A stretch of DNA of 46,637 nucleotides from Actinomycetota bacterium (GCA_030841025.1 JAVEDJ010000239.1:1-46637), one strand, 5' to 3'. Positions 20,301 to 46,637 are shown, numbered from the stretch's first letter. The notes: generated by a model not told the origin, from the sequence alone. Numbers and translations are program-made.

Positions 20301-21091
20301 GCGCTGTTCCTTCCGAATCGCGCCGTCACGGTGCCGAGGCCCGCAAAGACGGCGCTCCAGGTGTCACCGGGAGATGCCGGCTGGGCCGATGTCACCGAGC
20401 CCGGCAGCACGACCTGTCCGGGCTGGAGCACGACGCCGTGCTCCCCCACGGTGTTGGCCAGCCATGCGAGAGAGATGAGCGGCGAGCCCAGGACCGCGCC
20501 GCCGGCGCCCGTGGCCACGAGGTCACCGTTGCCGTACAGGTTGCAGCCAGCGAGACGCAGGTCGACGTCGGTGAGCCGCACCGGGCGGCTGCCCAGTACG
20601 ACGCCGCCGGACGAGGCATTGTCCGCGATGGTGTCGATGATGCTGATCTTCCAGTCCCGGATGCGCGAGTCGATGATCTCGAGTGCCGGCAGCACGAAGT
20701 CGACGGCGGCAGCAGCCTGGGCGACGGTGACACCGGGGCCGCGCAGCTCGCGGCCGAGGACGAAGGCGACCTCCGGCTCGACGCGCGGCGCGATGAACGT
20801 CCCAGCATCGATGGGATGGTGCTCGGGATAGAACATGTCGTCGCGCAGGACGCCGTAGTCGGGCTGGTCGACCCCCATCTGCCGCTGCATCGCCGCCGAT
20901 GTCAGGCCGACCTTGTGACCTTGCAGCACGCGCCCGTCGCGCTGCCAGGCCTCGACCTGCAGCTGTTGGACGGCGTAGGCGCCGGCGAGGTCCAGGTCCG
21001 GATGGCTCTGTACCAGCGGCGGGACCGCGACCCGCGACCCATACGCCCCGAGCAGGAGGTCCGCCGCCTCCTGGTGGGTTCCGTCACCCAT
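20297..21091 (-). CDS. 2-oxopent-4-enoate hydratase family; first gene of the operon, position suggests the hydratase
   Basis: '[12 protein letters not shown]...[12 protein letters not shown]' family block. ATGA overlap with the dmpF-like start. Confidence 0.8.
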
Positions 21092-24778: not shown

Positions 24779-24812
24779 GAACGTGTGACGGGCACGGTCA
24801 TGTCAAGCACGG

Positions 24813-25073
24813 TCACTCGTGCGCCGGCTCGTGGGTCGTCACCCGCGCCGTGGGCTTCACGTCGAAGACGTAGCGGCACCTCTCGCACCACACATGGAAC
24901 AGCCGGGCGTCCGCCGTCCAGTACTCCTGGACGAAGGACTGCACATCCAGCTGCGCCCCGCAGTGCGGGCAGAACTGCACCAGTGCCTGCACGTTGTCGT
25001 CGATCGCAGTGGCCTCCCCCTCGAGGGGGGCGTTGGGGATCTCGGACACGCCTGCCTCCTTGGCGAACGACAT
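24813..25073 (-). CDS. small CxxC...CxxC (zinc-ribbon-like) protein of unknown function
   Basis: 86 aa with 'CPHC' (C35, C38) and 'CERC' (C63, C66). ATG starts 2 nt after the Rieske stop. GC3-rich codon pattern. Confidence 0.55.
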   Translation of the reverse strand: MSFAKEAGVSEIPNAPLEGEATAIDDNVQALVQFCPHCGAQLDVQSFVQEYWTADARLFHVWCERCRYVFDVKPTARVTTHEPAHE

Positions 25074-25074
25074 G

Positions 25075-26352
25075 TCAGACGGTCGCGTCGTGGTGCTCGG
25101 TATCGCTGGCCGGAAGGCTCTTCTCTGCCTCTTCGAACAGTCGGAGCACGTCCTGCGCGATCGGACTGTAACGGCACTGTCCCATGGTCAGGAACTCGTA
25201 GCGGAAGCCTGCTCCGGTGCCGAACTTCTTCTTCTCCTGCGGCAGCGTGATGCAGTCGTTGATGCTCTCGTCGCGCACCACGCCCAACGGGTCCTCGCCG
25301 TCCTCGACCTTGTCCAGCTGCTCCTGGAAGAGGCGGCGCAACATGATGACGCCGAGGTCGGACTTGCCGAGATGCTCGTTGGAGCGGTCGGCGATGGCCC
25401 CTTGGCTCGCCCACGCCATGACGTCCTGGCCGTCGACGAAGTCGACGAGGAAGTCGCCCTTCTCGTCGTAGATCGGGACCTCGAACAGCGGGATCGAGTC
25501 CTGCGGCGGCACGGTGTAGTCGCCGTCAGGCTTGTAGACGTCGTACCAGAAGTGCGAGGTGTGGGTGTCGTCCACGGGGACCCGGATCTGGAACTGGTAG
25601 TGACCGCCGCCCCCGACCCGCAGCATCGCGGGGAACACCAGCGGGTGCCCCACCTTCCAGTCCTCGTCCTCCTCGGTCATGCCTTCGAGCACTCGCCGCT
25701 TGATGATCCCGTAGTCGAAGACGTCAAAGGCGACCTTCTCGTGCTTGCGCATCAGCACCTCGGCCTGCGCCTCGCCCGAGATGCCACGCACGAAGTTCAT
25801 GTAGTGCCCGTGCAGCCACTCGACGTGGTGCGGGTCGACGGAGTTCTCCATCACCTGAAGCCAGTTCATCGGCAGCAGGGCATGGCCCACGTCGCGCAGG
25901 CAGTTGTCCCAGACGAACAGGTCGAACCTCGGCAGCAGCGGCGCTGGGTCCTCACCCATGTAGACGAAGATCAGGCCGCCGAGCTCCTGGGCCTGGTACG
26001 TAACGGCCTGGATGCGGTCCTTGAACGTGCTGTCCGCGGGCTCCGCCGGCTGCTCGAGGCACTTGCCGTCCATGCCGTAGAGCCATCCGTGGTAGCCGCA
26101 CCGGATGCCGCGCTCCTCGACGATCGCGTAGCGCATCGAGGCACGGCGGTGCGGACACTGGGCCTCGATGACACCGATCTCGTCGCCCTTGCGGTACAGC
26201 ACGATGTCCTCGCCCAGCAGCCGGCGCTGGATCGGCTCTGGGCCGAGCTCTGACGTGGCGGCGAGGGGGTACCAGTAGTGACGGAGCAACGTGCCCATCG
26301 GCGTGCCCGGCCCTACCTGGGTCAGCCGCTCGTTCAACTCGGTCGTCAGCAT
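25075..26352 (-). CDS. Rieske [2Fe-2S] non-heme-iron oxygenase, single-subunit phthalate-family type
   Basis: 'CPHRRASMRYAIVEERGIRCGYHGWLY' Rieske CxH...CxxH. 'NWLQVMENSVDPHHVEWLH' mononuclear-iron motif. No beta-subunit gene is adjacent. Confidence 0.9.
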   Translation of the reverse strand: MLTTELNERLTQVGPGTPMGTLLRHYWYPLAATSELGPEPIQRRLLGEDIVLYRKGDEIGVIEAQCPHRRASMRYAIVEERGIRCGYHGWLYGMDGKCLEQPAEPADSTFKDRIQAVTYQAQELGGLIFVYMGEDPAPLLPRFDLFVWDNCLRDVGHALLPMNWLQVMENSVDPHHVEWLHGHYMNFVRGISGEAQAEVLMRKHEKVAFDVFDYGIIKRRVLEGMTEEDEDWKVGHPLVFPAMLRVGGGGHYQFQIRVPVDDTHTSHFWYDVYKPDGDYTVPPQDSIPLFEVPIYDEKGDFLVDFVDGQDVMAWASQGAIADRSNEHLGKSDLGVIMLRRLFQEQLDKVEDGEDPLGVVRDESINDCITLPQEKKKFGTGAGFRYEFLTMGQCRYSPIAQDVLRLFEEAEKSLPASDTEHHDATV

Positions 26353-26397
26353 CTCCGCGCCTTTCTGTTCATCGAATGTCCTACGGCCGGTACAACA

Positions 26398-27249
26398 TCA
26401 GCTGAAGAACCCGGCCACGTGCCGCTGGAAGTCCTCTGCCCGTTCGATCTGCGTCCAATGCCCACACCGGTGGAAGACCACCAGGTCCGCGGACGGCAGA
26501 ATGTGCAGCAGCCGCTGGCTGGTGGCTTCCAGGGGAATGATCTGGTCGTCGCGGCCATGGATCAGGAGCGTCGGGGTCTGGATGCTCGCCAGCTCGTCCT
26601 CGGTGAGCGCCATCGCCGTGATGTGGCGCTGACGTGGGGCGGCGAAGGCCGTGGCGTAACGCTCCTGGACGTCACCTACCTCGGTCGCCCGGAAACGCAG
26701 CTCGATCAGCTCGTCGGTCACGAGGCCCTGATCATAGGCGAACAGTCGCATGAGGGCGGCCATGTTGTCGTGGGAGGGCGTGTAGCCCCAGACCCGGTCC
26801 AGCCCTTCCGTGATCGGGAAGTCGATGCCGACAGCGCCCATCAGGACCATGCGGCGGATCCGCTCGGGATGGCGGTGCGCCAGCGCGAGGGCGAGCGCGC
26901 CGCCCATCGAGTTGCCCACCACATCGACCTGGTCCAGGCCCAGCGCGTCGAGGAAGCCGAGCAGGTGCCGGACCCGGGTGTCATGGTCGAGCTCGACACC
27001 GTCCGCCGCCCGCGTCTCGCCGAAGCCCACGACGTCGGGTGCCAGGAGCCGGCGGCCGTCAGCCAGCGGGGAGCGCATCAGCCCCTGCCAGTTGGCCCGA
27101 CCGGACACGCCTGGCCCCGACCCGTGGATCAACAGGACGGGCGGCCCGTCCGAGACCCCCGACTCGAGGTAGTGGGTGTCGAACGGGCCGTGCTGGACCC
27201 GGTCCTGCCGAAGGTCGTCGACGGCCGGCGTCGTGGAGGTGGCGGTCAC
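26398..27249 (-). CDS. alpha/beta-fold meta-cleavage-product hydrolase (XylF/DmpD/BphD-like)
   Basis: 'LLIHGSGPGVS', 'GNSMGG' nucleophile elbow and 'HRCGHWTQIE' catalytic His region. Confidence 0.85.
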   Translation of the reverse strand: MTATSTTPAVDDLRQDRVQHGPFDTHYLESGVSDGPPVLLIHGSGPGVSGRANWQGLMRSPLADGRRLLAPDVVGFGETRAADGVELDHDTRVRHLLGFLDALGLDQVDVVGNSMGGALALALAHRHPERIRRMVLMGAVGIDFPITEGLDRVWGYTPSHDNMAALMRLFAYDQGLVTDELIELRFRATEVGDVQERYATAFAAPRQRHITAMALTEDELASIQTPTLLIHGRDDQIIPLEATSQRLLHILPSADLVVFHRCGHWTQIERAEDFQRHVAGFFS

Positions 27250-28319
27250 GTACTCGGGTGATAGGCCGCGAAGACCTTGTTCGAGTTGAAGATGCCGGTC
27301 TCGGCGAAGTTCGACCAGGCGGGGACCTTCTGACCCAGCGCCTCCATCGCGCCCAGCAGCGGGAACCAGTTCAACAGCTCTTGCTGTCCTGCTCCCTCGA
27401 TCTCCTCCAACGACGTGGATCGCCAGGCGTCGAGGTCACCGCTGGTCATGGCGTCGTACAGCCGCCGGTCGCTGGGGGTGTCCGGTCGCAACCGCCAGGT
27501 GCGGTCGCAGATGAAGGCGTGCGACCAGCTCGACGAGGCGAGCAGCGCGATCCGCCAGGGCGACTCGGCACAGATCCGACCGACCTCGGCGCCGACGTCC
27601 ATCAGCCGAGCCGGCGTCGGGGAAGGCGGGTCCAGCTCGCGGATGTCGTCGAAGGGCGCCATGAACCCTTGGTAGCTGACCACACGACGGCCGTAGCAGT
27701 TGATCGGGAACGGTACGACGGGGTAGTCGAACCCCCGGCGGTGGTAGTCGAGGTAGAGCACGGCGTTGAGGAACGCGTGCGGCAGGCCGGGGTGGTGCAG
27801 CTGCTTGTAGGCGTAGGCCACGTCGACGCCACGGCCCATCAGCTCGGACACGATGTGCTTGCCGATGTCCGGGCGTCCCTTGACCGTGAACGCGGTATCG
27901 CCGCTCTCGCCCCAGACGTTGGGCCGACCCTTCATGTCGGAGGACTCCGCAGCGTGTGCCCAGGGGCGGACCTCGATGTCGTCGTAGGCCAGCACGGCGT
28001 ACGGCGGGATGAGGTCTTCCTTGAAGTTCTCGTACTGGTCGTCGCCCCAGATCACGATGGCATCGGGCTGGAAGTCATCGATCGCCGCACGGACGTCCTC
28101 GAAGCCCTTGATCAGCGCCGCCCGGTGGTCGGCCGCCGCGGCGCGGCCCTCGTCATCGGCCCATTCACGCCTGGCGATCTCCGGCCAGTTGGCGACGTCC
28201 TTCTCCGCCTCCGGGATGCCGGGATCCTCGAGGATGCGGCGCAGGATGCCCGCCATGTCCTCGTCGAGCCCGCTGAACGGGGGGTAGTGGGACAGCCCTA
28301 CGCCGAGAACCTCACCCAT
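27246..28319 (-). CDS. class III (LigB-superfamily) extradiol ring-cleavage dioxygenase, single polypeptide
   Basis: 'GVGLSHYPP', 'VIWGDDQYENF' and 'SSSWSHAF' resemble MhpB/LigB-type blocks. ATG 28319 has GGAGG 7 nt upstream. The 15-codon upstream extension was rejected. Confidence 0.75.
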   Translation of the reverse strand: MGEVLGVGLSHYPPFSGLDEDMAGILRRILEDPGIPEAEKDVANWPEIARREWADDEGRAAAADHRAALIKGFEDVRAAIDDFQPDAIVIWGDDQYENFKEDLIPPYAVLAYDDIEVRPWAHAAESSDMKGRPNVWGESGDTAFTVKGRPDIGKHIVSELMGRGVDVAYAYKQLHHPGLPHAFLNAVLYLDYHRRGFDYPVVPFPINCYGRRVVSYQGFMAPFDDIRELDPPSPTPARLMDVGAEVGRICAESPWRIALLASSSWSHAFICDRTWRLRPDTPSDRRLYDAMTSGDLDAWRSTSLEEIEGAGQQELLNWFPLLGAMEALGQKVPAWSNFAETGIFNSNKVFAAYHPST

Positions 28320-28480
28320 CTGCGTACCTCCGATCCGTCCGGTCGTGCCGGGAGTGATCGCCACCGTAAGTCGGTTCGTGAACTATCGTCAAGAGAAACT
28401 ATTTAAACTCGGAACCAAGACGTCGCCCTCAGCACCCCCCGGGCGGTACCGTGACGTGGTTGCACGAAGGAGGCAAAACG
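28320..28480. promoter_or_regulatory. divergent promoter region between the extradiol-dioxygenase operon and the MarR-decarboxylase operon
   Basis: Locally AT-rich island 'gttcgtgaactatcgtcaagagaaactatttaaactcggaac' with GTTC-n2-GAAC and repeated AACTAT, in otherwise high-GC DNA. Confidence 0.5.
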
Positions 28481-29056
28481 GTGTCACATCAAGGGCGCGC
28501 ACGCACGGAGGCCGATTCGACGACCGGAGAGGGCGACCCGGCGTCGACCGTGCCGTGGCAGGTCTCTCGTGCGGCAGCCGAACACGGAGCGGACTTCGAC
28601 CCGAGCGTCCTGTCGCTCACGCTGACCCTCTACCGCGCCATGTCCGCGTTCGACCGGGCCGGCCAGGCCGAGCTCGCCCCACACGGGCTGAGCGTGAGCC
28701 AGCTCAACATCCTGACCGTTCTGCACCGGGCCGACAGCCCGCTGACGATGGGCGAGCTGGGCCACGCCGTGTCCGTTCGCCCCGCCAACCTCACCAGCGT
28801 CGTGGACGCGCTGACCCAGCGCTCACTCATTGAGCGGCGGGTCAACCCCGGCGACCGCCGGTCCTATCTCATCGCGAACACGCCTGCCGGCGACGACTTC
28901 CTGGTGCGCTTCCTGCCGAGCCACTGGCGCTACCTCGAGACCTTGACCAGTGACCTGAGCAGCGAGGAGCGCATGCTGCTGACCGATCTGCTCGAGCGCC
29001 TCCGCGTCTCCGCCGAGGCTGCTCCCGGGAGCGAGCCCGTCCGGATGGCCGAGTGA
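28481..29056 (+). CDS. MarR-family transcriptional regulator
   Basis: 'LSVSQLNILTVLHRADSPLTMGELGHAVSVRPANLTSVVDALTQRSLIERRVNPGDRRS' winged HTH. GTG 28481 follows AAGGAGG. Confidence 0.8.
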   Translation: MSHQGRARTEADSTTGEGDPASTVPWQVSRAAAEHGADFDPSVLSLTLTLYRAMSAFDRAGQAELAPHGLSVSQLNILTVLHRADSPLTMGELGHAVSVRPANLTSVVDALTQRSLIERRVNPGDRRSYLIANTPAGDDFLVRFLPSHWRYLETLTSDLSSEERMLLTDLLERLRVSAEAAPGSEPVRMAE

Positions 29057-30066
29057 GCGCATCGCCCGTCGGTTCGGGGGCGCCCCGTGTCGACGTCCAC
29101 ACACATGCCATCCCGCCGCAGCTCCCTCGTCTCGCGGAGCGGTACGCCGGGTCCTGGCCCTCACTGGTCGCGACGGGCCCCTGCACCGCAGACCTGCTGC
29201 TGGGCGAGGACTTCTTCCGGGCCCTCGACGACCGCTGCTGGGACGCCCGCCGGCGCATCGAGGACATGGACGCCGAGCAGGTGGCGGTCCAGGTCGTCTC
29301 GCCGATCCCCGTGACGTTCTCCTACCGGCTGCCGGCCGACGGGGTGACCGAGCTGGCCCGCGTGCAGAACGAGTGGATCGCCGAGCTCGTGCGCGACACC
29401 CCGGACCGCTTCGTCGGACTCGGCACCGTTGCGTTGCAGGACCCTGCGGCTGCCGCCAGCTCGGTCATCGAGTGCATCACCACGTTCGGGCTGCGCGGCA
29501 TCGAGATCGGCAGCAACGTCGATGGGCTGGCCCTCGACGACCCGGCGCTCGAGGACTTCTGGGCCGCCTGCGCCGACACCGGAGCGGTCGTGCTCGTGCA
29601 CCCATGGCAGGTTCTCGGCGAGGAGCGGCTCGGGCGGCACGGACTGCTCTACTCCGTGGGCATGCCCGCCGAGACAGCTGCCGCTGCCGCGACGCTGATG
29701 CTCGGTGGTGTGTTGGACCGCCACCCCGCCCTCCGCGTCGTGCTCGCGCACGGCGGCGGCGCTCTGCTGGCGATGCTGCCGCGTATCGAGCGGTGCCTCA
29801 CGATGCTGCCGGGCATGACACCGCCTGCACTCGCACCGCGCGAGTACTTGCGCCGGTTCTGGTACGACTCGCTCGTCTACGACCCGGGCACCGTTCACTC
29901 GCTGGTGCGGGCCGTCGGTGCCGACCGGGTGATGGTCGGCAGCGACTATCCCTTCCCCATCGCCGAGCGACCCGTCGGCAGCGGCGTCCTGGCCGCGGGC
30001 TTGGCCGACGAGGAGCAGACCGCGGTCCTCACCGGGACTGCGGCCGACCTGTTCGGCCTTCGCTGA
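29053..30066 (+). CDS. amidohydrolase_2 / ACMSD-family non-oxidative decarboxylase
   Basis: 'VDVHTHAIPP' HxH, 'CWD...RIEDMD...VQVVSPIPVTFSY', 'VLVHPW' and 'GSDYPFP' are collinear with ACMSD-type enzymes. GTGA overlap with the MarR stop. Confidence 0.8.
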   Translation: MSASPVGSGAPRVDVHTHAIPPQLPRLAERYAGSWPSLVATGPCTADLLLGEDFFRALDDRCWDARRRIEDMDAEQVAVQVVSPIPVTFSYRLPADGVTELARVQNEWIAELVRDTPDRFVGLGTVALQDPAAAASSVIECITTFGLRGIEIGSNVDGLALDDPALEDFWAACADTGAVVLVHPWQVLGEERLGRHGLLYSVGMPAETAAAAATLMLGGVLDRHPALRVVLAHGGGALLAMLPRIERCLTMLPGMTPPALAPREYLRRFWYDSLVYDPGTVHSLVRAVGADRVMVGSDYPFPIAERPVGSGVLAAGLADEEQTAVLTGTAADLFGLR

Positions 30067-31071: not shown

Positions 31072-31105
31072 GGGGCAGCTCCTGCGTTGGTGGTGAGCGG
31101 TGGTG

Positions 31106-34774: not shown

Positions 34775-34849
34775 TCTTGCGTCCTCTCCGCCGCTGCTGC
34801 GGCGTTGTTGTCCCGCCGCGCGACGAACCCGCGCGGCAGGGGTGGTTGC

Positions 34850-36615: not shown

Positions 36616-36671
36616 TCGCGTATCGCTCCCTTGTCCCGATCGGAGTCACCGCTCCTGGGCCCGGCGGTCGG

Positions 36672-37751: not shown

Positions 37752-37973
37752 CGGCAACTCACTCCATTCATGGAAGGGTGGCGAGCGGAGCCTCGTGGTC
37801 GGGGACTGCCCCACTTTAGGCTCGTGCTGTGTCGAGCGCCACATTTCTACCTTGTTACCCTGACTATTAGCAAGAAGGATTGTCAATTTTCGTAGTAACT
37901 TCGCTGATACAGAGAGTCGCCGCGACGGCGACCGCTGTCCGATCGCCCACGACGGCCCGAAAGGTGGTTCGGC
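37752..37973. promoter_or_regulatory. divergent promoter region between the ABC-importer operon and the MFS gene
   Basis: AT-rich island 'attagcaagaaggattgtcaattttcgtagtaac' and a hairpin GTCGCCG-cga-CGGCGAC (37916-37932) in the MFS leader. Confidence 0.5.
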
Positions 37974-39287: not shown

Positions 39288-39338
39288 GGACCCCGGTGCG
39301 TCCACATGAGTGATCCTGATGTGGACGCACCGGGGTCC
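39288..39338. terminator. perfect 20-bp inverted repeat (11-nt loop) between convergent genes; likely bidirectional terminator
   Basis: GGACCCCGGTGCGTCCACAT - gagtgatcctg - ATGTGGACGCACCGGGGTCC, read directly. Lies 13 nt after the MFS stop and 41 nt after the gamma-like stop. Confidence 0.7.
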
Positions 39339-39378: not shown

Positions 39379-39663
39379 TCAGCTCGGCACGAAGTCCTCG
39401 CCCACCGGCACGACCTCGGTGTGGAACGCGACCGCGCACCCCGGGCAGATGTACTGCCGGAACACGACATCCGTGTCGACGAATGCCCGCGAATCCGTGA
39501 AGATGTGCGGCCCGGCCGCGTCGACCGTCGTCTCGTAGAACGGCAACTTCGAGACGTAGTCCGTCGGTCCACCCTCCAGCGACTGGTCGCAGTGGGCACA
39601 GAAGATGCTGCCGTCCTCCCTGCGGAGCACGTTCTCGTTGAGCCGCCTGCCGGACGTGGTCAT
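39379..39663 (-). CDS. small acetone-carboxylase-gamma-like zinc-binding protein
   Basis: 94 aa with 'CAHC' and 'CPGC' pairs. ATGA overlap with the HyuB-like stop. Its position matches the gamma subunit in the acxABC order. Confidence 0.6.
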   Translation of the reverse strand: MTTSGRRLNENVLRREDGSIFCAHCDQSLEGGPTDYVSKLPFYETTVDAAGPHIFTDSRAFVDTDVVFRQYICPGCAVAFHTEVVPVGEDFVPS

Positions 39664-41636
39664 CGTGACTCCTTCGCGAGCTCGCGGCGCTGCTCTTTGA
39701 GCTGACGCCGGTGCTCTTCTGTCGCTGCCAGATCTGCCTCGCCGGACTCCGCGAGCACCACGCCGTAGACCGCTCTGGCGCTCTGCTCGGTCACCCGGAA
39801 CTCACCCACGTCGTGCGCAACTCGGGCAGGCTCGCGTAGCAGGGGGTCGCCGTAGCCGCCGCCGGACTGCCATGACATGTAGTGCACGTCGGTGGGTGAC
39901 AGCAGCACCTCGTCCTCGCAGGCGAGCAGGTGCTGCTCACCCGTGATCTCGTCCAGGGACGACGGGATGATGCCCTTGGCGAACAGCTCCTGCACATTGG
40001 CGCTGCGCATCGCGATGTCGGCCTGGCTGCTCCCTGGGTAGCCTCCGGCGAGTCCGGGGTTCATCGGGATCGACTTGCCGGACCCGGACACCACCTGCAT
40101 CATCGGCACCGGCGTGTCGTGCGGCACGAAGCACAGCGAGGCCGTGACGCCGCCACGGAACCGTCCGGGACCACCGCTGTCGGGCTCCTCACGTCGCCAC
40201 AGATACAGCATCGGCAGCATGAACTCGTTCATCTCCACGTCGGGCATCTTGCCCATCGGGATGAGCAAGAGCCCGGCCGTGTCCACGCCATCGTGGTCGT
40301 TGCCGGCGCCGAAGCCCGCACCCATGGAGTCGGTGATCATCGTGGCGAACGGGTTGCCGCGTTGGTCCAGCCCGGCCATGACGCACAGGTCCCACGTGCC
40401 GCAGCAGACCGACTGCACGTCCTTGTTGTGCTCGACGCTGGTGTCGAGCATCTTGGACAGGCACTCGGTCGCGGCGTTCGTCGTCGCCCAGGCCGACGCC
40501 ACCGATCCCTTGCCGACACCGGAAGGGAAGGTGGCGTTGTTCAGGGTCCCCTCCTCGGTCTTGAAGGTCAGGCACCGGCGCAGACCGCCGGCTGCCCAAG
40601 GGATGTCGCCGCACAGCACCGGGAGCACCGCGGACATGACCCCGCCGTAGAGGCCGGTGAACGTGCAGTTGATCATGCCGGACTGGGGACCCGTCCCGGT
40701 GAAGTCGAACTCCAGGTCGGTGCCTCGCTTGGTCAGCGTGCAGACGATGGGGTGAACACCTCGGTCGTCCTTCATCGACTGCTCCTGGTAGCTCACGGCT
40801 TTCCAGGTTCCGTCCTCGATCTTCTCCAGCTTGGCGCGCAGCCGGCTCTCCGCGTCGTCGAGCTGACGCTGCATGGCCGCCTTGACCGTCTCAGCGCTGT
40901 AGCGCTCGATGAGCTGGCGGATGCGCTCGTGTCCGACCATGTTGGCGCCGAACTTCGCCCGCAGGTCGAGGGCCACGAGCTTGGGCACGCGAGAACGCCG
41001 TACGTAAAGGTCCTCAACGTCCTGGCGCAGCTGGTACTTCTCGGCGATCTTGACGGGTGGCGTGGGCAGCGACTCCCAGAAGACGTCCTCCGCGCGTGGC
41101 GTCCAGCTGCCGGGTGACACGCCGCCGAGGTCTGCCTGGTGGGCGACCGCACAGGTCCATGCGAACAGCTCGCCGTCGTGGAACAACGGTGCGAACAGCG
41201 CCACGTCGTTCTGGTGCAAGCCACCACCCACCCAGGGGTCGTTGCACAGGAACATGTCGCCTTCGTGGATGCCCGGGTTGATCGAACGATGCTCGAGGAT
41301 CCACTTGATCGCGAGGTCCGTGGAGGCCACGAGCTCGGTGTTGTAGGGGCCCACCTGTACGACGTCGCCGACCTCGTCCGTGATGGCGACGTCGAAGTCG
41401 TTGCAGTCGGTGACCACCAGGGAGCCGGACATGGCCTTGAGGGCCTGTCCCATCATGTCGGTGATCGCCCAGAGCCGGTGGCGGATCACCTCGTAGGTGA
41501 GGGCGTCCATCTTCTCGACTGCCTCGGGGCTGCCCCGGTGCAGCACGAGCGAGTCGGGTAGCGATGCGAGAACTTCTTCGGGGGTTCGGATCCGGCTGGC
41601 GAAGACCTCGGAGCCGGGTACCTGCATGAAGGGCAT
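39660..41636 (-). CDS. hydantoinase B/oxoprolinase-family subunit (carboxylase alpha-like)
   Basis: 'CNDPWVGGGLHQNDV' and 'GGGYGDP' Hydantoinase_B blocks. ATG 41636 with an AGGAG RBS 5 nt upstream. The upstream 56 codons were rejected. Confidence 0.85.
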   Translation of the reverse strand: MPFMQVPGSEVFASRIRTPEEVLASLPDSLVLHRGSPEAVEKMDALTYEVIRHRLWAITDMMGQALKAMSGSLVVTDCNDFDVAITDEVGDVVQVGPYNTELVASTDLAIKWILEHRSINPGIHEGDMFLCNDPWVGGGLHQNDVALFAPLFHDGELFAWTCAVAHQADLGGVSPGSWTPRAEDVFWESLPTPPVKIAEKYQLRQDVEDLYVRRSRVPKLVALDLRAKFGANMVGHERIRQLIERYSAETVKAAMQRQLDDAESRLRAKLEKIEDGTWKAVSYQEQSMKDDRGVHPIVCTLTKRGTDLEFDFTGTGPQSGMINCTFTGLYGGVMSAVLPVLCGDIPWAAGGLRRCLTFKTEEGTLNNATFPSGVGKGSVASAWATTNAATECLSKMLDTSVEHNKDVQSVCCGTWDLCVMAGLDQRGNPFATMITDSMGAGFGAGNDHDGVDTAGLLLIPMGKMPDVEMNEFMLPMLYLWRREEPDSGGPGRFRGGVTASLCFVPHDTPVPMMQVVSGSGKSIPMNPGLAGGYPGSSQADIAMRSANVQELFAKGIIPSSLDEITGEQHLLACEDEVLLSPTDVHYMSWQSGGGYGDPLLREPARVAHDVGEFRVTEQSARAVYGVVLAESGEADLAATEEHRRQLKEQRRELAKESR

Positions 41637-41644
41637 GGGATCTC

Positions 41645-43744
41645 CTACTGGTAGCGGATGACGAGGTTGCCGAGCTGGTCCACGGTCGCCGAAGTGGTCG
41701 GGGGGATCACGACGGTCGTGGTGGGGGCCTCGACGATCGCCGGGCCCTGGATCTGGTGGCCACGGCCGAGTGCCGTGTAGTCGTAGACGGCGACCTCCTG
41801 CCATCCGGCCCGGATGTCGAGCATCGCCCGACGGTGTTCCTTGACCTCGGGAGGCCCGTCGGTCCCATCGGCCGTCATCGTCGGGAGCTCGGGCTTGAAC
41901 GGCAGCTTGCCGGTTCCGAACACGCGATAGGTGATGAACTGCACCCCCGCCTCGCGGAAACCGCTGCCGGCACCGAAGAGGTTGGCGTAGCGCTCTTCGA
42001 AGTCGTGCGAGACCTGCAGGACTGCGGCCTCGTCCAGCGAGCCGGCCTTCACGGGAGTGGCTACCTCGAAGATCTGCATCGTGTAGCGAGCGTCGATCTC
42101 TCGCGACGCCACAATCTCCTTGAAGTCCACCCGCTGCTCGGTCAGCCGCCGCCGCACCTCGTCCTCGAGCTGAGAGAGGTTGCCCTCCACCGTCGCCGGG
42201 TCGACCGGGAAGTTGGCCGGGTCGGACAGCTCCGCCGACAGCACCACGTCGGACGTCGCCAGCCCGTAGGCCGAGAATGTCGCCGCCGTCTCACCGAGCG
42301 GCACGACGATCTCCTGCACACCGAGGTCGGCGCCGTACGCCGCGCAGTGGACCGGCCCGGCACCGCCGAACGCGTACATCACGAAGTCGCGCGGGTCGTG
42401 CCCGGCACCGACCACCACGGACCGGACGAGGTCAGCGGTCTGGGAGTTCTGGATCTCGAAGACCGCAGCCGCGGCTTCCTCCGGGGTCATGCCGAGCGGG
42501 TCGCCGATGGCCTGCTTGAGTGCTGCCCGGGCGAGGTCGATGTCGAGCTTCTTCTCCCCGCCGAGGAAGAAGTCGGGGTTGAGGATCCCGAGCACCAGGT
42601 TGGCGTCGGAGACCGTCGGCTCGGTGCCGCCCTGGCCGTAACAGGCCGGGCCGGGTGACGCGCCCGCACTGCGGGGTCCGACGCGTAGGTTTCCTCCGTC
42701 GTCGAGCCAGGCGATTGCGCCGCCGCCGCTGCCGATCGTGGCGACCTTCATCATCGGCACGGTGATCTGGTACTGGTTCAACGTCGTGGTCGAGTCGAAG
42801 ACGGGCTCGCCGTCGACGACGAGGCCGACGAGGAACGTGGTGCCGCCGACGTCGGTCGAGATGATGTTCTTGTGCCCCAGCTGCTTGCCCAGGGTGCGCG
42901 CGCCGATGACGCCGCCGGTGAGCACCGAGCCGATGGTGGTGATGGCGTATGCCGGCGCCTCGTGCGCTGACACGCTTCCGCCGGAGCCTTGCATGATCAG
43001 GAGCGGGCCCTTGAGACCGCGCTGGGCGAGCTGCTCGGCGAGAGGGTTCAGGTAGTCGCGGAGCGTGGGTCCGATCTGGGTGCTCATCACGGTTGTCGCG
43101 CTGCGGGGGTACTCCCGGATGCGGGGGCTGATCTCGCTCGAGAGAGCGACGTACATGTCCGGCGCGAGCTCATGGACCAGCTCACGCACTCGCTGCTCGT
43201 GTGCCGGGTTACGGAACGACCAGAGCAGTGAGACGGCAATCGCCTCGACCCCGTCGTCGATCAGCTCGCGAATCGCGGTGCGGGTCGCGTCCTCGTCGAG
43301 AGCGACGATCTCGGCACCCTTGTAGTCGATCCGCTCGACGACCTCCTTGACCCGCCGCTTCGGCACCAGTGGCTTCGGCTTGCGCGTCGAGGTGATGTCC
43401 TGGATCTCCTCGGGGCTCAGACCGGCATAGCGGCCCTCCAGGTTCATGATGTAGATCGAGTCGCGGTGGCCCTTGGTGGTCAGGAACCCCACCTCGGCCA
43501 CATCGCCGGTGACCAGCGCATTCAGCGACGCAGTCGTTCCGTGACAGATGTACGCCGTGTCACCCAAGAGGTCCCCCACCTCCCTGCCGATGGTCTCCGC
43601 GAGCGCATCGATCGAGCTGAGCACGCCGCGGGCAAAGTCCGGTGGCGTCGAGGGCACCTTGGCCGAGTAGACGTGACCGCTGTCGTCAGCGGCGAAGGCG
43701 TCTGTGAATGTCCCCCCGACGTCGATCCCGATGATGTGTGGCAC
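41645..43744 (-). CDS. hydantoinase A/oxoprolinase-family ATPase subunit (carboxylase beta-like)
   Basis: 'IGIDVGGTFTDAF' and 'DVGGTTFLV' ASKHA phosphate motifs. GTG 43744 is preceded by GGAGGA. The TTG 43777 alternative is less likely. Confidence 0.85.
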   Translation of the reverse strand: MPHIIGIDVGGTFTDAFAADDSGHVYSAKVPSTPPDFARGVLSSIDALAETIGREVGDLLGDTAYICHGTTASLNALVTGDVAEVGFLTTKGHRDSIYIMNLEGRYAGLSPEEIQDITSTRKPKPLVPKRRVKEVVERIDYKGAEIVALDEDATRTAIRELIDDGVEAIAVSLLWSFRNPAHEQRVRELVHELAPDMYVALSSEISPRIREYPRSATTVMSTQIGPTLRDYLNPLAEQLAQRGLKGPLLIMQGSGGSVSAHEAPAYAITTIGSVLTGGVIGARTLGKQLGHKNIISTDVGGTTFLVGLVVDGEPVFDSTTTLNQYQITVPMMKVATIGSGGGAIAWLDDGGNLRVGPRSAGASPGPACYGQGGTEPTVSDANLVLGILNPDFFLGGEKKLDIDLARAALKQAIGDPLGMTPEEAAAAVFEIQNSQTADLVRSVVVGAGHDPRDFVMYAFGGAGPVHCAAYGADLGVQEIVVPLGETAATFSAYGLATSDVVLSAELSDPANFPVDPATVEGNLSQLEDEVRRRLTEQRVDFKEIVASREIDARYTMQIFEVATPVKAGSLDEAAVLQVSHDFEERYANLFGAGSGFREAGVQFITYRVFGTGKLPFKPELPTMTADGTDGPPEVKEHRRAMLDIRAGWQEVAVYDYTALGRGHQIQGPAIVEAPTTTVVIPPTTSATVDQLGNLVIRYQ

Positions 43745-43831
43745 TCGTCCGTCCTCCAAGTAAGCGAAATCAGGCAACTGGTCCCGAAGCAGGGCCCAGG
43801 TCGAGCAGCAGCGACAACCGCGACCCTGTGG

Positions 43832-44941
43832 TCAGGGGATGATCACGGGTTTGATCTCTCGCATGGACTCCATGCCGTCGAGCGCTTCTCCGACCTGGTC
43901 CAGGGAGTAGCGAGACCCCAGTAGGTCACCGAAGGAGAAGCGGTCTTGATGGTCACGGAGGAACGTGAGGGCTCGGTAGTAGTGCGAGACGTCTCCGCTC
44001 ATGGTGCCGGCGACCGTGAGCTGACGCAGGTTGAAGTAGGTCGGGCGGATCTCCACCGGCCGGGGTTCGGACGCGCCGATGATGAGGTACCGGCCGCCGC
44101 GCCGGACGAGGTCCATGCCCTCGACGAATGCCGCGTTGGCGCCGCTGCACTCGACGACCAGGTCAGCGCCCCTGCCGTCGGTGAGCTCGAGCACCTGCTC
44201 ACGGCGAGTGGCCGGGTCACCGTTCTGCACGTCGAGAACCACATCGGCGCCCCAGCGCCGGGCGATGTCCAGCCTGGCCTCCGGCGCCCCGATCATGATG
44301 GTCTGGCGGGCACCCGACTGGATCGCGAACGCGAGGGCGTAGAGACCGACGGGGCCGCTGCCCTGGACGACCACGGTCTCGTGGGTCTCGATGCGGCCGA
44401 TCTTCTCGTAGCCGTGGATGATCGTGCGGAACGCGCACGTCGCCGACGCCGCCACCGCCGGGTCGAGCCCCTCAGGGACCTTCACGATGCTGCAGGGCGG
44501 CATGATGTAGGCGTACTCCGCGAAGCCGCCGGTGATGTACGGCGCCTTGTCCGCGGGGCCCCAGCCGTACATCCGGGCGTTCTCGCAGGCCGTCGGCTGC
44601 TTGGCGAGGGTGCACCAGTAACAGCTGCCGCACCAGGCGTAGGACCAGGCGACCAGGTCACCCTCGGCGAGGGGACGGTTGAGCGCGTCGACCGTACGCT
44701 CGCTGCCGAGCTCAGCGATGCGTCCCACGATCTCGTGGCCGGGAACCAGCGGCAGCTTGGACAGCCCGGCCGCGGCGTACTCGCCACGCCAGATGTGCAC
44801 GTCGGTCCCGCACATCGTGGTGGCTTCGACCTTCACGATCGCCGCCTTGGGTTCCGGCGGCGGGACGGGGAGGGAACGCACCTCGAGTGGTTTCTCGTAG
44901 TCGACCAGGACGGCCGCCCGCGTCTCCGCTGGCCTAGTCAT
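43832..44941 (-). CDS. zinc-dependent medium-chain alcohol dehydrogenase
   Basis: 'CGTDVHIWRGEY', 'GHEIVGRI', structural-Zn 'CGSCYWCTLAKQPTAC' and 'VVQGSGPVGL'. ATG 44941 with a GGAGG RBS. Confidence 0.85.
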   Translation of the reverse strand: MTRPAETRAAVLVDYEKPLEVRSLPVPPPEPKAAIVKVEATTMCGTDVHIWRGEYAAAGLSKLPLVPGHEIVGRIAELGSERTVDALNRPLAEGDLVAWSYAWCGSCYWCTLAKQPTACENARMYGWGPADKAPYITGGFAEYAYIMPPCSIVKVPEGLDPAVAASATCAFRTIIHGYEKIGRIETHETVVVQGSGPVGLYALAFAIQSGARQTIMIGAPEARLDIARRWGADVVLDVQNGDPATRREQVLELTDGRGADLVVECSGANAAFVEGMDLVRRGGRYLIIGASEPRPVEIRPTYFNLRQLTVAGTMSGDVSHYYRALTFLRDHQDRFSFGDLLGSRYSLDQVGEALDGMESMREIKPVIIP

Positions 44942-44978
44942 CGGTGCCTCCGTTGCGTGGAAGAAACTGGGTTCGTGG

Positions 44979-46472
44979 TCATCGCAGTGCGATGTTGACG
45001 GTCTTGGACTGGGTGTAGCTGAGGAGCTCCTCGATGCCCTCCTCCGAGTCAGTGCCACTGTTCTTGTGGCCCGAGAAGGGGGCGCCGAGGAAGTGGCTGC
45101 CGGTGCCGTTGACCCACACATAGCCGGTGTCCAGCCGGTCAGCGACCGAGAGCGCCGTCTGCAGGTCCTTGGTCCAGACCGCGCCGGTGAGCCCGTAGGG
45201 AACGTCGTTGGCCTGGGCGATCACGTCGTCGAGGTCGTTCCATCGCAGGACCGAGAGCACCGGCCCGAAGATCTCCTCACGGGCGATGCGCATGGACATG
45301 TCGACGTCGGCGAAGACGGTGGGTTCGACGAAGAAGCCGTCCTTCAGTGCCGGGTCCTGCGGTTTGCCGCCACCGGTGACCAGCCGCGCACCGTCCTCGC
45401 GACCCTTGTCGATGTACGACGTGACCTTGTCGTACTGCGCCTGTGACACGAGGCAGCCCATCTCGGTCTCGGCGTCGAGCGGGTGTCCGATGCGGATGGC
45501 CTGCAGCCGGCGCGTGAGCTTCTCGAGCACCTCGTCGTGGACCGACTCATGCAGAAACAGACGCGTCGTGGAGCCGCAGGACTGCCCCTGGCACCAGTGG
45601 CAGTTCATGCCGAAGGCAGCGCCCTCGACGACGGCGTCGATGTCGGCGTCCTCGCAGACGATCATCGGGTTCTTCCCGCCGAGCTCGAGGCTGACGTGCT
45701 TGACCCCGGCCGTCGCGGCCGCGGCCTGCACGCGCTGACCCGTCTCGACGCTTCCGATGAGCGCGATGCGCTTGACCTCCGGGTGCCGGACGAGGGCGTC
45801 GCCGGTCACCGCGCCGGTTCCGCTCAGGATGTTCACCACGCCCGGGGGGAAGATCTCCTGCAGCAGCTCCGCCATCAGCAGAGCCGACAGCGGCGCCTGG
45901 TCGGGCACCTTCAGGATGAGCGTGTTGCCGGTGACCAGCGGTGCACCCAGCTTGGCGGCCGCGAACAGGATCGGGTGGTTGTAGGGAATGATCCGCCCGA
46001 CGACGCCGTAGGGCTCGCGACGGGTCAACAGCCAGCTGCGCGTCATCGACGGGAGGGTCGATCCCTTGATCTCGAAAGCCACCCCCGTCTGGTAGTCCAG
46101 CCACCGGGCCGCCATCGCGACATCGCCGATCATCGCCGTGACGGGGTTGCCGACATCGGCAGCATCGAGCAGCCCGAACTCCCGGGAGCGGTCGAGCAGC
46201 CTGGTGGCGAACCGGCGGATCAGCGCCGACCGCTCGGTCAGCGGCGTGTCCCGCCAGGCAGGGAACGCGGCCTGGGCCGCGCGGACGGCTGCATCGACGT
46301 CCTCCGGCCCGGCCAGTGGGACGTGCGCGAGGTGCGAGCCGTCGTACGGGGCGGTCGTCTGCATCGTCTGACCGGACTGTGCGGCGACCAGCTCGCCGCC
46401 GATGAGCATGCGCCAGTCCCGCTTCAGCAGAACCTGCAGATCGGTGGTGTTCTCCGTGACAGATACCGACAT
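44979..46472 (-). CDS. NAD(P)-dependent aldehyde dehydrogenase
   Basis: 'LELGGKNP' and 'CQGQSCGSTTR' catalytic Cys. ATG 46472. The upstream 48 codons run through AT-rich promoter-like DNA and were rejected. Confidence 0.9.
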   Translation of the reverse strand: MSVSVTENTTDLQVLLKRDWRMLIGGELVAAQSGQTMQTTAPYDGSHLAHVPLAGPEDVDAAVRAAQAAFPAWRDTPLTERSALIRRFATRLLDRSREFGLLDAADVGNPVTAMIGDVAMAARWLDYQTGVAFEIKGSTLPSMTRSWLLTRREPYGVVGRIIPYNHPILFAAAKLGAPLVTGNTLILKVPDQAPLSALLMAELLQEIFPPGVVNILSGTGAVTGDALVRHPEVKRIALIGSVETGQRVQAAAATAGVKHVSLELGGKNPMIVCEDADIDAVVEGAAFGMNCHWCQGQSCGSTTRLFLHESVHDEVLEKLTRRLQAIRIGHPLDAETEMGCLVSQAQYDKVTSYIDKGREDGARLVTGGGKPQDPALKDGFFVEPTVFADVDMSMRIAREEIFGPVLSVLRWNDLDDVIAQANDVPYGLTGAVWTKDLQTALSVADRLDTGYVWVNGTGSHFLGAPFSGHKNSGTDSEEGIEELLSYTQSKTVNIALR

Positions 46473-46637
46473 TGACGCTCCATCCCGAGAAGGGTGGACC
46501 AGCGGTGGTGGCCGGATGGTCCGGGCTCGTGCTCTGCGGTGAGCGGACGCTACCGCTCGGCCCTTGTTAAATCTAGGTTTCTGGACATTTACGCTCTCTG
46601 ACTTTTGGCAATACAAGTAGTGGAATGGCAGGTCAGG

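What the first reader, a model, noticed from the sequence alone, without database searches (positions are those of the whole stretch)
39379..46472. ALDH, Zn-ADH, HyuA, HyuB and mini-gamma operon: an acetone/acetophenone-carboxylase-like ATP-dependent enzyme of unknown substrate
Seen in sequence: five co-directional genes with short gaps or overlaps. The HyuA-like (699 aa), HyuB-like (658 aa) and 94-aa CxxC...CxxC protein lie in the same beta-alpha-gamma order as acxABC, with an ATGA overlap between the last two. Established knowledge: acetone carboxylase and acetophenone carboxylase are hydantoinase-family ATP-dependent carboxylases with a small Zn-binding gamma subunit. By contrast, 5-oxoprolinase, caprolactamase and N-methylhydantoinase lack it. 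Here both the alpha-like and gamma-like proteins are clearly shorter than the Xanthobacter sizes I recall (about 776 and 168 aa). The enzyme is preceded by an alcohol and an aldehyde dehydrogenase. Inference: this is an alcohol -> carbonyl -> ATP-dependent carboxylation (or lactam/ketone activation) route for an unidentified substrate. The alcohols could even come from phthalate-ester side chains, given the neighbouring cluster, but that link is speculative.
Basis: partly seen in the sequence, partly recalled or inferred. Interest (0 to 1): 0.65.

Follow-up and report, generated by a model that had tools for sequence, protein, structure and literature searches.

The report
Ketone-carboxylase-like three-subunit enzyme operon
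A soil actinobacterium carries a five-gene operon whose last three genes encode an uncharacterised ATP-driven enzyme related to acetone and acetophenone carboxylases; it probably adds CO2 to a ketone formed during breakdown of an aromatic compound, but no activity has been measured.

Summary
Five tightly packed minus-strand genes encode an ALDH, a Zn-ADH, HyuA (699 aa), HyuB (658 aa) and a 94-aa four-cysteine protein that overlaps HyuB by ATGA.

The small protein misses the Pfam PF08882 threshold (14.8 bits against 21). A 64-member family profile nevertheless hits the acetophenone carboxylase small subunit (E 8e-12) and acetone carboxylase gamma (E 3e-5). Its AlphaFold model matches only those chains, and relatives carry it fused to HyuB.

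HyuA keeps all the ATP-binding motifs. HyuB keeps the Asp-His-Asp-His metal site.

In a rough tree, HyuB falls in a third clade. That clade lies outside both the Apc/Acx carboxylases and the known hydrolases, and every sampled member has a free or fused gamma.

Neighbours across this clade are alcohol dehydrogenases and CoA ligases, CoA-transferases or thiolases, never amine-handling genes.

In the same species, a complete five-subunit Apc-like operon with a CoA-transferase lies directly upstream of the window's end. An aromatic ring-cleavage module is a conserved neighbour in three lineages.

Best reading: a new branch of ATP-dependent ketone carboxylases with unknown substrate (confidence about 0.55). 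A hydrolase cannot be excluded. The proposed phthalate-ester link is unsupported.

The parts
44979..46472 (-). NAD(P)-dependent aldehyde dehydrogenase, 497 aa; first gene of the five-gene unit
   Evidence: PF00171 E 7e-154. No NCBIfam equivalog cut-off is reached. The best PDB matches are generic class 1/2 ALDHs. A GGATGGAG motif lies before the ATG.
43832..44941 (-). Zn-dependent medium-chain alcohol dehydrogenase, 369 aa
   Evidence: ADH_N plus ADH_zinc_N. The best NCBIfam match is TIGR03366 at 178 bits, below its cut-off of 328. The best PDB match is the uncharacterised 1vj0. Substrate class is not assignable.
41645..43744 (-). HyuA-like ATP-binding (kinase) subunit, 699 aa; 'alpha' in the unified nomenclature
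   Evidence: Hydant_A_N, Hydantoinase_A and Hydant_A_C. In the numbering of the 710-aa TTG-start ORF, the motifs are DVGGTFTD at 19, DVGGT at 309, GASPGP at 372 and the alpha-type fingerprint VERIDYKG at 147. Motif definitions come from PMC8453981 and PMC5214803. The GTG start is preceded by GGAGGA.
39660..41636 (-). HyuB-like metal-site subunit, 658 aa; 'beta' in the unified nomenclature
   Evidence: PF02538 E 3e-117. Asp80/His141/Asp144/His166 align with CapB Asp41/His99/Asp102/His124. The clade profile scores ApcD 316, CapB 253, AcxA 250 and N-methylhydantoinase 225 bits. HyuB falls in a separate clade in the tree.
39379..39663 (-). Minimal gamma subunit, 94 aa: a four-cysteine Zn-ribbon-like protein homologous to ApcB/AcxC, translationally coupled to HyuB by an ATGA overlap
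   Evidence: PF08882 gives only 14.8 bits. The family profile A2 hits 5l9w_C at E 8.3e-12 and 5m45_C at E 2.7e-5. Thirty of 64 family members hit PF08882. The AF2 model has pLDDT 92.3 and its Foldseek top five are Apc/Acx small chains only. HyuB-gamma fusions exist.
39288..39338 (.). 20-bp perfect inverted repeat between the convergent gamma and MFS genes; likely a bidirectional terminator that ends the operon
   Evidence: Sequence read. The 101-nt stretch containing it folds at -70.9 kcal/mol, z -7.7, and none of 200 shuffles matches it.
46473..46637 (-). 163-bp gap upstream of the ALDH gene, partly AT-rich by eye. It may hold an internal promoter. The window ends where the upstream Amidohydro_2 gene stops.
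   Evidence: Sequence. The consensus scan found no sigma-70-like site. The gap is only about 30-40 nt in relatives L024 and L031, so co-transcription with the upstream operon is possible.
23519..30066 (.). Conserved neighbouring aromatic module: GFO/IDH/MocA dehydrogenase, Rieske oxygenase (LigXa_C-type), BphD/HsaD-like meta-cleavage hydrolase, LigB-type dioxygenase, MarR and Amidohydro_2
   Evidence: Pfam and NCBIfam. Orthologues at 58-80% identity lie within about 170 nt downstream of gamma in L028 and directly after it in L031.

Best explanation
[quoted passage not shown] It most likely works like acetone or acetophenone carboxylase.

Proposed mechanism, by analogy to the Acx and Apc structures:
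- The ASKHA-type HyuA subunit uses ATP to phosphorylate an enolisable ketone and bicarbonate.
- The activated intermediates pass to the Asp-His-Asp-His metal site in HyuB, where the C-C bond forms and yields a beta-keto acid.
- The small Zn-ribbon subunit clamps onto HyuB in a structural role.

Proposed pathway:
- The co-transcribed Zn-ADH would supply the ketone from a secondary alcohol.
- The ALDH would feed a related aldehyde into the same acid pool.
- The family III CoA-transferase encoded upstream would activate the beta-keto acid for thiolysis.
- The substrate is probably a ketone connected with aromatic-compound catabolism.

Shown: gene content, subunit homology, intact ATP and metal motifs, gamma homology and its fusion to HyuB, conserved synteny.

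Inferred: carboxylation chemistry, the roles of ADH, ALDH and the CoA-transferase, and the substrate class.
For: - Gamma homology. Profile hits to ApcB (E 8e-12) and AcxC (E 3e-5). The Foldseek top five are exclusively Apc/Acx small chains, with TMq 0.57-0.70. The cysteines at 22/25/73/76 compare with Apc-gamma 22/25/75/78.
- Physical coupling to HyuB. The two genes overlap by ATGA, and natural HyuB-gamma fusions occur in several lineages.
- Gene order. HyuA-HyuB-gamma is the order that defines acx-type clusters, and no characterised hydrolase has gamma (PMC5214803).
- Intact catalytic motifs.
- Closest solved relative. The HyuB clade profile is closest to ApcD, at 316 bits against 253 for CapB.
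- Neighbourhoods across the clade pair the enzyme with alcohol dehydrogenases and CoA-activating or beta-oxidation enzymes. Examples are a family III CoA-transferase, an NDP-forming acyl-CoA synthetase, thiolase plus an acyl-CoA dehydrogenase, an AMP-binding ligase, a Zn-dehydrogenase and an acetoacetate-decarboxylase-family protein, and SDRs plus an acyl-CoA ligase. No aminotransferase or amine oxidase appears in any of them.
- A complete Apc-like operon (ApcB-, C-, D-, E- and A-like, then CoA-transferase) lies immediately upstream in the same species.
Against: - In the tree HyuB is not inside the Apc+Acx group. It forms a separate clade (split supported 100/100), so function cannot be transferred by orthology.
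- HyuA scores higher against the caprolactamase alpha model (523 bits) than against the ApcC model (407 bits).
- Subunit lengths (699 and 658 aa) lie nearer hydrolase and Apc sizes than Acx sizes.
- The first metal ligand is Asp, as in hydrolases and Apc, not the gating Glu of Acx.
- One gamma-fused HyuB, from R. pseudokoreensis, groups with the hydrolase branch (91/100). Gamma is therefore not a strict marker of carboxylases.
- The role of gamma is unknown even in Apc and Acx, where it sits far from the active sites.
- There are no expression or biochemical data.
- The ALDH has no obligatory role in a simple ketone-carboxylation route.
Confidence: 0.55

Rival explanations
1. It is an ATP-dependent hydrolase of the hydantoinase/lactamase type. 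It would open a cyclic amide or similar stable carbonyl compound via a phosphorylated intermediate and merely retains a gamma-like Zn-ribbon accessory subunit.
For: - HyuA scores best against the caprolactamase alpha model (522.8 bits) and against N-methylhydantoinase in the PDB (408 bits).
- The Asp-His-Asp-His site is the hydrolase/Apc version (PMC8453981).
- Subunit lengths are close to those of hydrolases.
- A gamma-fused HyuB groups with the hydrolase branch.
- Caprolactamase also needs bicarbonate, so the two chemistries are mechanistically close.
Against: - No characterised hydrolase of the family has a gamma subunit.
- HyuB lies outside the hydrolase clade, which itself has 99/100 support.
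- None of the roughly ten neighbourhoods inspected has an aminotransferase, amine oxidase or deaminase. They have CoA ligases, CoA-transferases, thiolase and alcohol dehydrogenases instead.
Confidence: 0.2
2. It is not an autonomous enzyme. It would be a second alpha-beta-gamma core that works with the alpha' (ApcA-like) and epsilon (ApcE-like) proteins of the Apc-like operon directly upstream. That would give two Apc-type isoenzymes with different ketone specificities that share accessory subunits.
For: - The ApcA-like alpha' gene lies upstream of the five-gene block in three lineages.
- The full set with epsilon is seen in two species.
- In Apc, alpha' contacts only alpha, and epsilon is a dissociable subunit.
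- The gap between the two gene blocks shrinks to about 30-40 nt in relatives.
Against: - More distant members (L030, Natronosalvus, Haloterrigena, R. opacus) show HyuA-HyuB-gamma with no ApcE-like gene in the stretches inspected. No alpha'-like HyuA is seen either, apart from one extra HyuA copy about 4 kb away in Haloterrigena.
- Set 2 is only 27-32% identical to set 1, so conserved interfaces are not evident.
Confidence: 0.15
3. It uses ATP-dependent carbonyl or enol activation for a different outcome, such as cleavage, isomerisation or net decarboxylation of a beta-dicarbonyl or aryl ketone intermediate. That would be chemistry not yet described for the family.
For: - The clade is separate from all characterised members.
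- Neighbours include an acetoacetate-decarboxylase-family protein and a 2,4'-dihydroxyacetophenone-dioxygenase-family protein.
- The clade is linked to ring-cleavage genes.
Against: There is no positive evidence. All known members either carboxylate ketones or hydrolyse amides.
Confidence: 0.1

Closest known systems
Acetophenone carboxylase ApcABCDE of Aromatoleum aromaticum (PDB 5L9W)
   Same: - It is the closest solved relative of HyuB: 196 bits to the single sequence and 316 bits to the clade profile.
- It is also the closest solved relative of the small protein: E 8e-12 and TMq 0.70.
- The four cysteines sit at nearly the same positions.
- The first metal ligand is Asp.
- HyuA carries the alpha-type ERID..G fingerprint.
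- The context matches: a CoA-activating enzyme and an alcohol dehydrogenase.
   Different: - It has no alpha' or epsilon of its own.
- The gene order is alpha-beta-gamma, not alpha'-gamma-alpha-beta-epsilon.
- Gamma is 94 aa against 129 aa.
- The HyuB C-terminal arm is shorter.
- NCBIfam equivalog cut-offs are missed by a wide margin (224/1500 and 407/1500).
- It falls outside the Apc clade.
Acetone carboxylase AcxABC of Xanthobacter autotrophicus (PDB 5M45/5SVB)
   Same: - It has the same three-subunit composition and the same gene order, HyuA-like, HyuB-like, gamma.
- The gamma fold matches (TMq about 0.6).
- A single ATP-binding subunit would have to activate both substrates.
   Different: - HyuB is 658 aa against 776 aa, and gamma is 94 aa against 168 aa.
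- Asp80 replaces the gating Glu89.
- It is the lowest-scoring PDB match of the HyuB single sequence (122 bits).
- It falls outside the Acx branch.
ATP-dependent lactamases/hydantoinases (caprolactamase CapAB, PDB 6YRA; N-methylhydantoinase, PDB 7HK5)
   Same: - They share the HyuA/HyuB fold family, the ATP motifs and the Asp-His-Asp-His metal site.
- HyuA length and scores are similar.
   Different: - They have no gamma subunit.
- HyuB is not in their clade.
- Their pathways need amine-handling enzymes, which are absent here.

Membership tests
Hydantoinase/ketone-carboxylase superfamily (Weidenweber et al. 2017) | HyuA-like subunit with ASKHA ATP-binding motifs (DxGGTxxD, DxGGT, GxxPGP) | tested here: met
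   DVGGTFTD at 19, DVGGT at 309 and GASPGP at 372. Pfam domains.
Hydantoinase/ketone-carboxylase superfamily (Weidenweber et al. 2017) | [quoted passage not shown] | tested here: met
   D80, H141, D144 and H166 align with the CapB ligands.
Ketone carboxylases (Acx and Apc together) | Small gamma subunit with four conserved cysteines, homologous to AcxC/ApcB (PF08882) | tested here: met
   The direct Pfam hit is below the gathering score (14.8 bits against 21). The family profile hits ApcB at E 8e-12 and AcxC at E 3e-5. Thirty of 64 relatives hit PF08882. The fold matches only Apc/Acx small chains.
Ketone carboxylases (Acx and Apc together) | HyuB-like subunit clusters with characterised carboxylases in a phylogeny | tested here: not met
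   A neighbour-joining tree with 100 bootstraps puts it in a separate clade. The split from the carboxylases plus hydrolases has 100/100 support. The tree is rough, because the reference sequences were taken from the aligned parts only.
Ketone carboxylases (Acx and Apc together) | ATP- and bicarbonate-dependent formation of a beta-keto acid from a ketone | not testable with these tools
   This needs an enzyme assay with labelled bicarbonate. Bicarbonate-stimulated ATPase alone is not diagnostic, because caprolactamase shows it too.
Acetone carboxylase (Acx) | Gene order HyuA-like, HyuB-like, gamma | tested here: met
   criterion.
Acetone carboxylase (Acx) | Long subunits: HyuB-like about 776 aa in X. 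autotrophicus (PDB chain length) and gamma about 168 aa with an N-terminal extension | tested here: not met
   658 aa and 94 aa, against PDB chains of 776 and 168 aa.
Acetone carboxylase (Acx) | Glu as the first (gating) metal ligand | tested here: not met
   Asp80 occupies this position; criterion.
Acetophenone carboxylase (Apc) | Five subunits (alpha', gamma, alpha, beta, epsilon) encoded together | tested here: not met
   The five-gene unit holds only alpha, beta and gamma. The full set exists in the separate operon upstream.
Acetophenone carboxylase (Apc) | NCBIfam equivalog scores for ApcC and ApcD | tested here: not met
   406.9 against a cut-off of 1500, and 224 against 1500.
ATP-dependent hydantoinase/lactamase (Hyd, CapAB, OplAB) | Two subunits only, with no gamma | tested here: not met
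   Gamma is present, translationally coupled and conserved, and it is fused to HyuB in relatives.
ATP-dependent hydantoinase/lactamase (Hyd, CapAB, OplAB) | Clusters with CapB or N-methylhydantoinase; NCBIfam CapA/CapB cut-offs reached | tested here: not met
   It lies outside the hydrolase clade, which has 99/100 support. Scores are 522.8 against 1000 and 206.4 against 1000.

The most novel reading that the evidence does not exclude
[quoted passage not shown] In this soil actinobacterium the enzyme would carboxylate an aromatic-pathway ketone that the neighbouring Apc-like enzyme does not accept, for example a hydroxylated or methoxylated aryl methyl ketone of the acetovanillone or 4-hydroxyacetophenone type. 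With the ADH and ALDH routes it would converge on an aroylacetate that the CoA-transferase then activates. That would be a biotin-independent alternative to the two known acetovanillone pathways, and a minimal three-subunit aryl-ketone carboxylase.
Probability: 0.15. Interest if true: 0.7.

Novelty: new variant of a known kind. Interest (0 to 1): 0.45.

Why it matters
Only two enzyme types of this family, acetone and acetophenone carboxylase, are known to form C-C bonds from bicarbonate without biotin, and only one Apc has been characterised.

This is a separate and widespread clade: 262 representative small subunits, found in actinobacteria, haloarchaea and others. It has a minimal or fused gamma subunit and sits in ketone/CoA-type neighbourhoods. 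It is therefore a concrete target for finding new ATP-dependent carboxylases, which are useful for CO2-fixing biocatalysis and lignin or aromatic valorisation. It could also show what the gamma subunit does.

The pairing of a full Apc-like operon with this second enzyme next to a ring-cleavage module points to an undescribed catabolic route for aromatic ketones or alcohols in a soil Nocardioidaceae bacterium whose locus appears in soil metagenomes from at least 17 studies.

Tried and rejected
- Direct Pfam, NCBIfam and PDB searches with the 94-aa protein gave nothing significant. A shallow 19-sequence profile reached only E 0.12 to ApcB. The deeper 64-sequence profile was needed.
- A genome-contig scan with the CoA-transferase found only distant CoA-transferases without the cluster.
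- A homologue search with the partial alpha' protein did not return the full-length protein. The upstream context was instead recovered through the ApcE-like protein.
- The promoter/terminator consensus scan found no promoter-like site, and its two terminator-like hits were within chance expectation.
- PDB searches with the ADH and ALDH gave no substrate clue.
- A search for RNA runs found no usable transcript data.
- The window's 361-aa cupin shows no BLAST similarity to the M. branderi 2,4'-dihydroxyacetophenone-dioxygenase-family protein.
- I considered a lactam pathway (caprolactam or N-methylpyrrolidone type) and rated it lower, because no amine-handling genes occur in any neighbourhood.
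- I considered the phthalate-ester alcohol idea and rejected it as unsupported. The alpha/beta hydrolase nearby is a BphD/HsaD-type C-C hydrolase, not an esterase match.
- My recollection that SYK-6 VceA is an NDP-forming synthetase was wrong. The paper describes an acetyl-CoA-dependent converting enzyme, so that parallel was dropped.

Full report
**1. Observation**

The region 39379-46472 holds five co-directional genes on the minus strand:
- an aldehyde dehydrogenase (46472..44979, 497 aa);
- a Zn-dependent medium-chain alcohol dehydrogenase (44941..43832, 369 aa);
- a HyuA-like protein (43744..41645, 699 aa);
- a HyuB-like protein (41636..39660, 658 aa);
- a 94-aa protein (39663..39379).

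The four large proteins give unambiguous Pfam hits. The gaps are 37, 87 and 8 nt, and the last two genes overlap by ATGA. Every start is preceded by a GGAG-type ribosome-binding site. For HyuA this site favours the GTG at 43744 over the longer TTG ORF. Third-position GC is 0.85-0.89. A stem-loop with a 20-bp perfect inverted repeat follows the small gene, before a convergent MFS gene. The 101-nt stretch containing it folds at -70.9 kcal/mol, z -7.7.

**2. The small protein**

- PF08882 is the top Pfam hit, but at 14.8 bits (E 0.034) against a gathering score of 21.
- NCBIfam and PDB sequence searches give nothing.

It is nevertheless conserved. In 19 close homologues Cys22, Cys25, Cys73 and Cys76 are invariant, as is an FRQ..CP.C....TEVVP motif. 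An exhaustive profile search found 262 cluster representatives at E <= 1e-3.

Three lines of evidence tie it to the carboxylase gamma subunits:
- Of 64 diverse members, 30 hit PF08882, with a best E of 7.8e-14.
- A profile of those 64 hits the acetophenone carboxylase small subunit 5L9W_C at E 8.3e-12 and acetone carboxylase gamma 5M45_C at E 2.7e-5. Both cysteine pairs are in register.
- An AlphaFold2 model (pLDDT 92.3) matches only those chains in the PDB (TMq 0.70 and 0.57-0.62). The next hit is at noise level.

Weidenweber et al. place the Apc small-subunit cysteines at 22, 25, 75 and 78 (PMC5214803), almost the same positions. The protein is therefore a minimal gamma subunit, shorter than Apc (129 aa) and Acx (168 aa).

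Several lineages encode it fused to the C-terminus of HyuB through a 15-25-residue linker. That supports a physical partnership with HyuB, as in the Apc structure, where gamma wraps the HyuB-like subunit.

**3. The large subunits**

HyuA has the three ASKHA nucleotide-binding motifs. It also has the ERID..G fingerprint that distinguishes the beta-contacting alpha subunit from Apc alpha' (definitions). HyuB has Asp80, His141, Asp144 and His166 aligned with the caprolactamase metal ligands. This tetrad is shared by hydrolases and carboxylases (PMC8453981), so it shows an intact enzyme but not which chemistry it performs.

No curated equivalog model is reached:

| Subunit | Model | Score (bits) | Cut-off (bits) |
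|---|---|---|---|
| HyuA | CapA | 523 | 1000 |
| HyuA | ApcC | 407 | 1500 |
| HyuB | ApcD | 224 | 1500 |
| HyuB | CapB | 206 | 1000 |

Against solved structures:
- The HyuB single sequence is closest to ApcD (196 bits), then CapB 161, N-methylhydantoinase 128 and AcxA 122.
- A profile of the gamma-associated HyuB clade scores ApcD 316, CapB 253, AcxA 250 and N-methylhydantoinase 225 bits.
- HyuA is about equidistant from all of them (335-408 bits).

**4. Phylogeny**

I built a neighbour-joining tree of 19 HyuB-like sequences (623 columns, 100 bootstraps). It has limits: the PDB references were transcribed from the aligned parts, AcxA is partial, and sampling is small. It gives three groups:
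- hydrolases: CapB, N-methylhydantoinase and a gamma-less Ketogulonicigenium protein (99/100);
- carboxylases: ApcD with two Apc-like proteins (100/100), plus AcxA (98/100);
- a third clade holding the window's HyuB and all sampled partners of the mini-gamma, separated from the other two by a split with 100/100 support.

It is also not a member of the Acx or Apc branches.

One gamma-fused HyuB, from Rhodococcus pseudokoreensis, groups with the hydrolases (91/100). This is a warning that gamma is not a perfect marker of carboxylases.

**5. Context**

*Upstream.* An almost identical contig (GCA_025965375.1; one of its proteins is named by NCBI as from a Marmoricola sp. MAG) shows what lies beyond the window's end. 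It is an eight-gene run with 4-nt overlaps:
- an IclR regulator;
- a PF08882 small subunit (121 aa);
- HyuA (715 aa) and HyuB (710 aa);
- an ApcE-like protein;
- an ApcA-like second HyuA (679 aa);
- a family III CoA-transferase;
- an Amidohydro_2 protein.

A 163-bp gap follows, and then the ALDH gene. In a relative with 85-88% protein identity, all five Apc subunit models are matched below their cut-offs (ApcB 126, ApcC 553, ApcD 378, ApcE 58 and ApcA 443 bits). The finding is therefore the second and more divergent hydantoinase-type enzyme of a larger cluster. It is only 27-32% identical to the first set.

*Downstream.* In two other lineages the ALDH-ADH-HyuA-HyuB-gamma block is followed closely (within about 170 nt in one, directly in the other) by an aromatic module. 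The module holds MarR, Amidohydro_2, a LigB-type dioxygenase, a BphD/HsaD-like meta-cleavage hydrolase, a Rieske oxygenase and a GFO-family dehydrogenase. Orthologues at 58-80% identity lie in the window at 23519-30066. This link to aromatic ring cleavage is conserved despite rearrangement.

*More distant members* of the clade keep a common theme:
- an NDP-forming acyl-CoA synthetase, an aromatic hydroxylase and a P450;
- thiolase and an acyl-CoA dehydrogenase in a haloarchaeal plasmid, where PGAP already names the 93-aa protein 'acetone carboxylase subunit gamma';
- an acetoacetate-decarboxylase-family protein, an AMP-binding ligase and a Zn-dehydrogenase;
- SDRs and an acyl-CoA ligase in R. 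opacus;
- P450s and a 2,4'-dihydroxyacetophenone-dioxygenase-family protein in M. branderi.

None has amine-handling genes.

**6. Interpretation**

This neighbourhood pattern is what the Apc and Acx paradigms predict: alcohol dehydrogenase, then ketone carboxylase, then CoA activation of the beta-keto acid, then thiolysis. It is not what lactam pathways predict.

Together with the gamma subunit and the closer profile score to ApcD, I favour an ATP-dependent ketone carboxylase (confidence about 0.55). The mechanism would follow the Acx structures. The ketone and bicarbonate are phosphorylated at the HyuA nucleotide site, the intermediates transfer to the HyuB metal site, and the C-C bond forms there (PMC5543143).

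The ALDH is not needed in a simple ketone route. One rationale has a precedent in Sphingobium SYK-6. There, oxidation of beta-hydroxypropiovanillone via an aldehyde and carboxylation of acetovanillone both yield vanilloyl acetic acid (bioRxiv 10.1101/2022.04.28.489975). Alcohol/aldehyde oxidation and ketone carboxylation could converge in the same way on one aroylacetate here. This is a hypothesis only.

Rivals are a gamma-bearing hydrolase (0.2), a core that borrows alpha' and epsilon from the neighbouring Apc-like enzyme (0.15), and different chemistry (0.1).

**7. Comparison, novelty and verdict**

The enzyme works most like Apc or Acx, but it fails the membership tests of each described branch:
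- Acx: subunit lengths, the gating Glu and clade placement;
- Apc: five-subunit composition, equivalog scores and clade placement;
- Hyd: absence of gamma and clade placement.

It is best filed as a new variant, an uncharacterised mini-gamma branch of a known family.

The phthalate-ester speculation is not supported. A PhtC equivalog is indeed present at 14621-15388 (328 bits, cut-off 200), but nothing ties ester-derived alcohols to this operon.

The locus is common in soil metagenomes. No transcript data were found.

Interest is moderate. This is a sound, testable lead to a new ATP-dependent carboxylase type and to the role of gamma, but it is not a surprise in kind.

Noticed in passing
beyond the window end; L040 1-10444 (JAOPXB010000065.1) and L024 2436-12868: A complete Apc-like operon lies directly upstream of the ALDH gene in the same species. 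It runs IclR, PF08882 gamma (121 aa), HyuA, HyuB, ApcE-like, ApcA-like, family III CoA-transferase and Amidohydro_2, with 4-nt overlaps. All five Apc subunit models are matched below their equivalog cut-offs.
   Followed up: yes
window 14621-15388 (-): A class II aldolase-family protein passes the NCBIfam equivalog cut-off for 3,4-dihydroxyphthalate decarboxylase PhtC (327.8 bits against 200). This is the only firm phthalate-pathway assignment I saw.
   Followed up: partly
window 18346-21091 (-) and 15893-17365 (-): The meta-cleavage lower pathway is present: a DmpG-like aldolase, an acylating acetaldehyde dehydrogenase, a FAA-family hydratase, and a hydroxymuconic-semialdehyde-type ALDH (520 bits, below cut-off).
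   Followed up: partly
window 30076-37886 (-): A block separates the carboxylase-like operon from the aromatic module here but is absent in relatives L028 and L031, so it looks inserted. It holds an NMT1/SsuA-type ABC transporter, a 361-aa cupin, a 545-aa EutA-like ASKHA protein, an EamA transporter and a second binding protein. A EutA-like reactivase with no ethanolamine ammonia-lyase nearby is unexplained.
   Followed up: partly
P0081, P0091, P0103, P0131, P0148; L034 6884-9214; L037 7986-10163; L035 7893-10202: Natural HyuB-gamma fusion proteins occur in several lineages. The R. opacus pCP105 copy keeps a gamma-like tail that has lost the cysteines. The R. pseudokoreensis fusion groups with the hydrolase branch in the tree.
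   Followed up: partly
window 39379-39663 compared with 39660-43744; L024, L028, L031: The gamma subunit evolves much faster than its partners between the same genome pairs: 64-72% identity against 84-90% for HyuA and HyuB.
   Followed up: no
window 39288-39338: A perfect 20-bp inverted repeat lies between the convergent gamma and MFS genes. The 101-nt stretch containing it folds at -70.9 kcal/mol, z -7.7. There is no T-tract, as is usual in high-GC actinobacteria.
   Followed up: yes
L036 4913-5710 (Haloterrigena plasmid) and L034 3497-3973 (M. branderi): An acetoacetate-decarboxylase-family gene lies directly upstream of a HyuA-HyuB-gamma set. In another member, a 2,4'-dihydroxyacetophenone-dioxygenase-family gene sits near a HyuB-gamma fusion. 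Both hint at ketone or beta-keto-acid chemistry in the clade.
   Followed up: no
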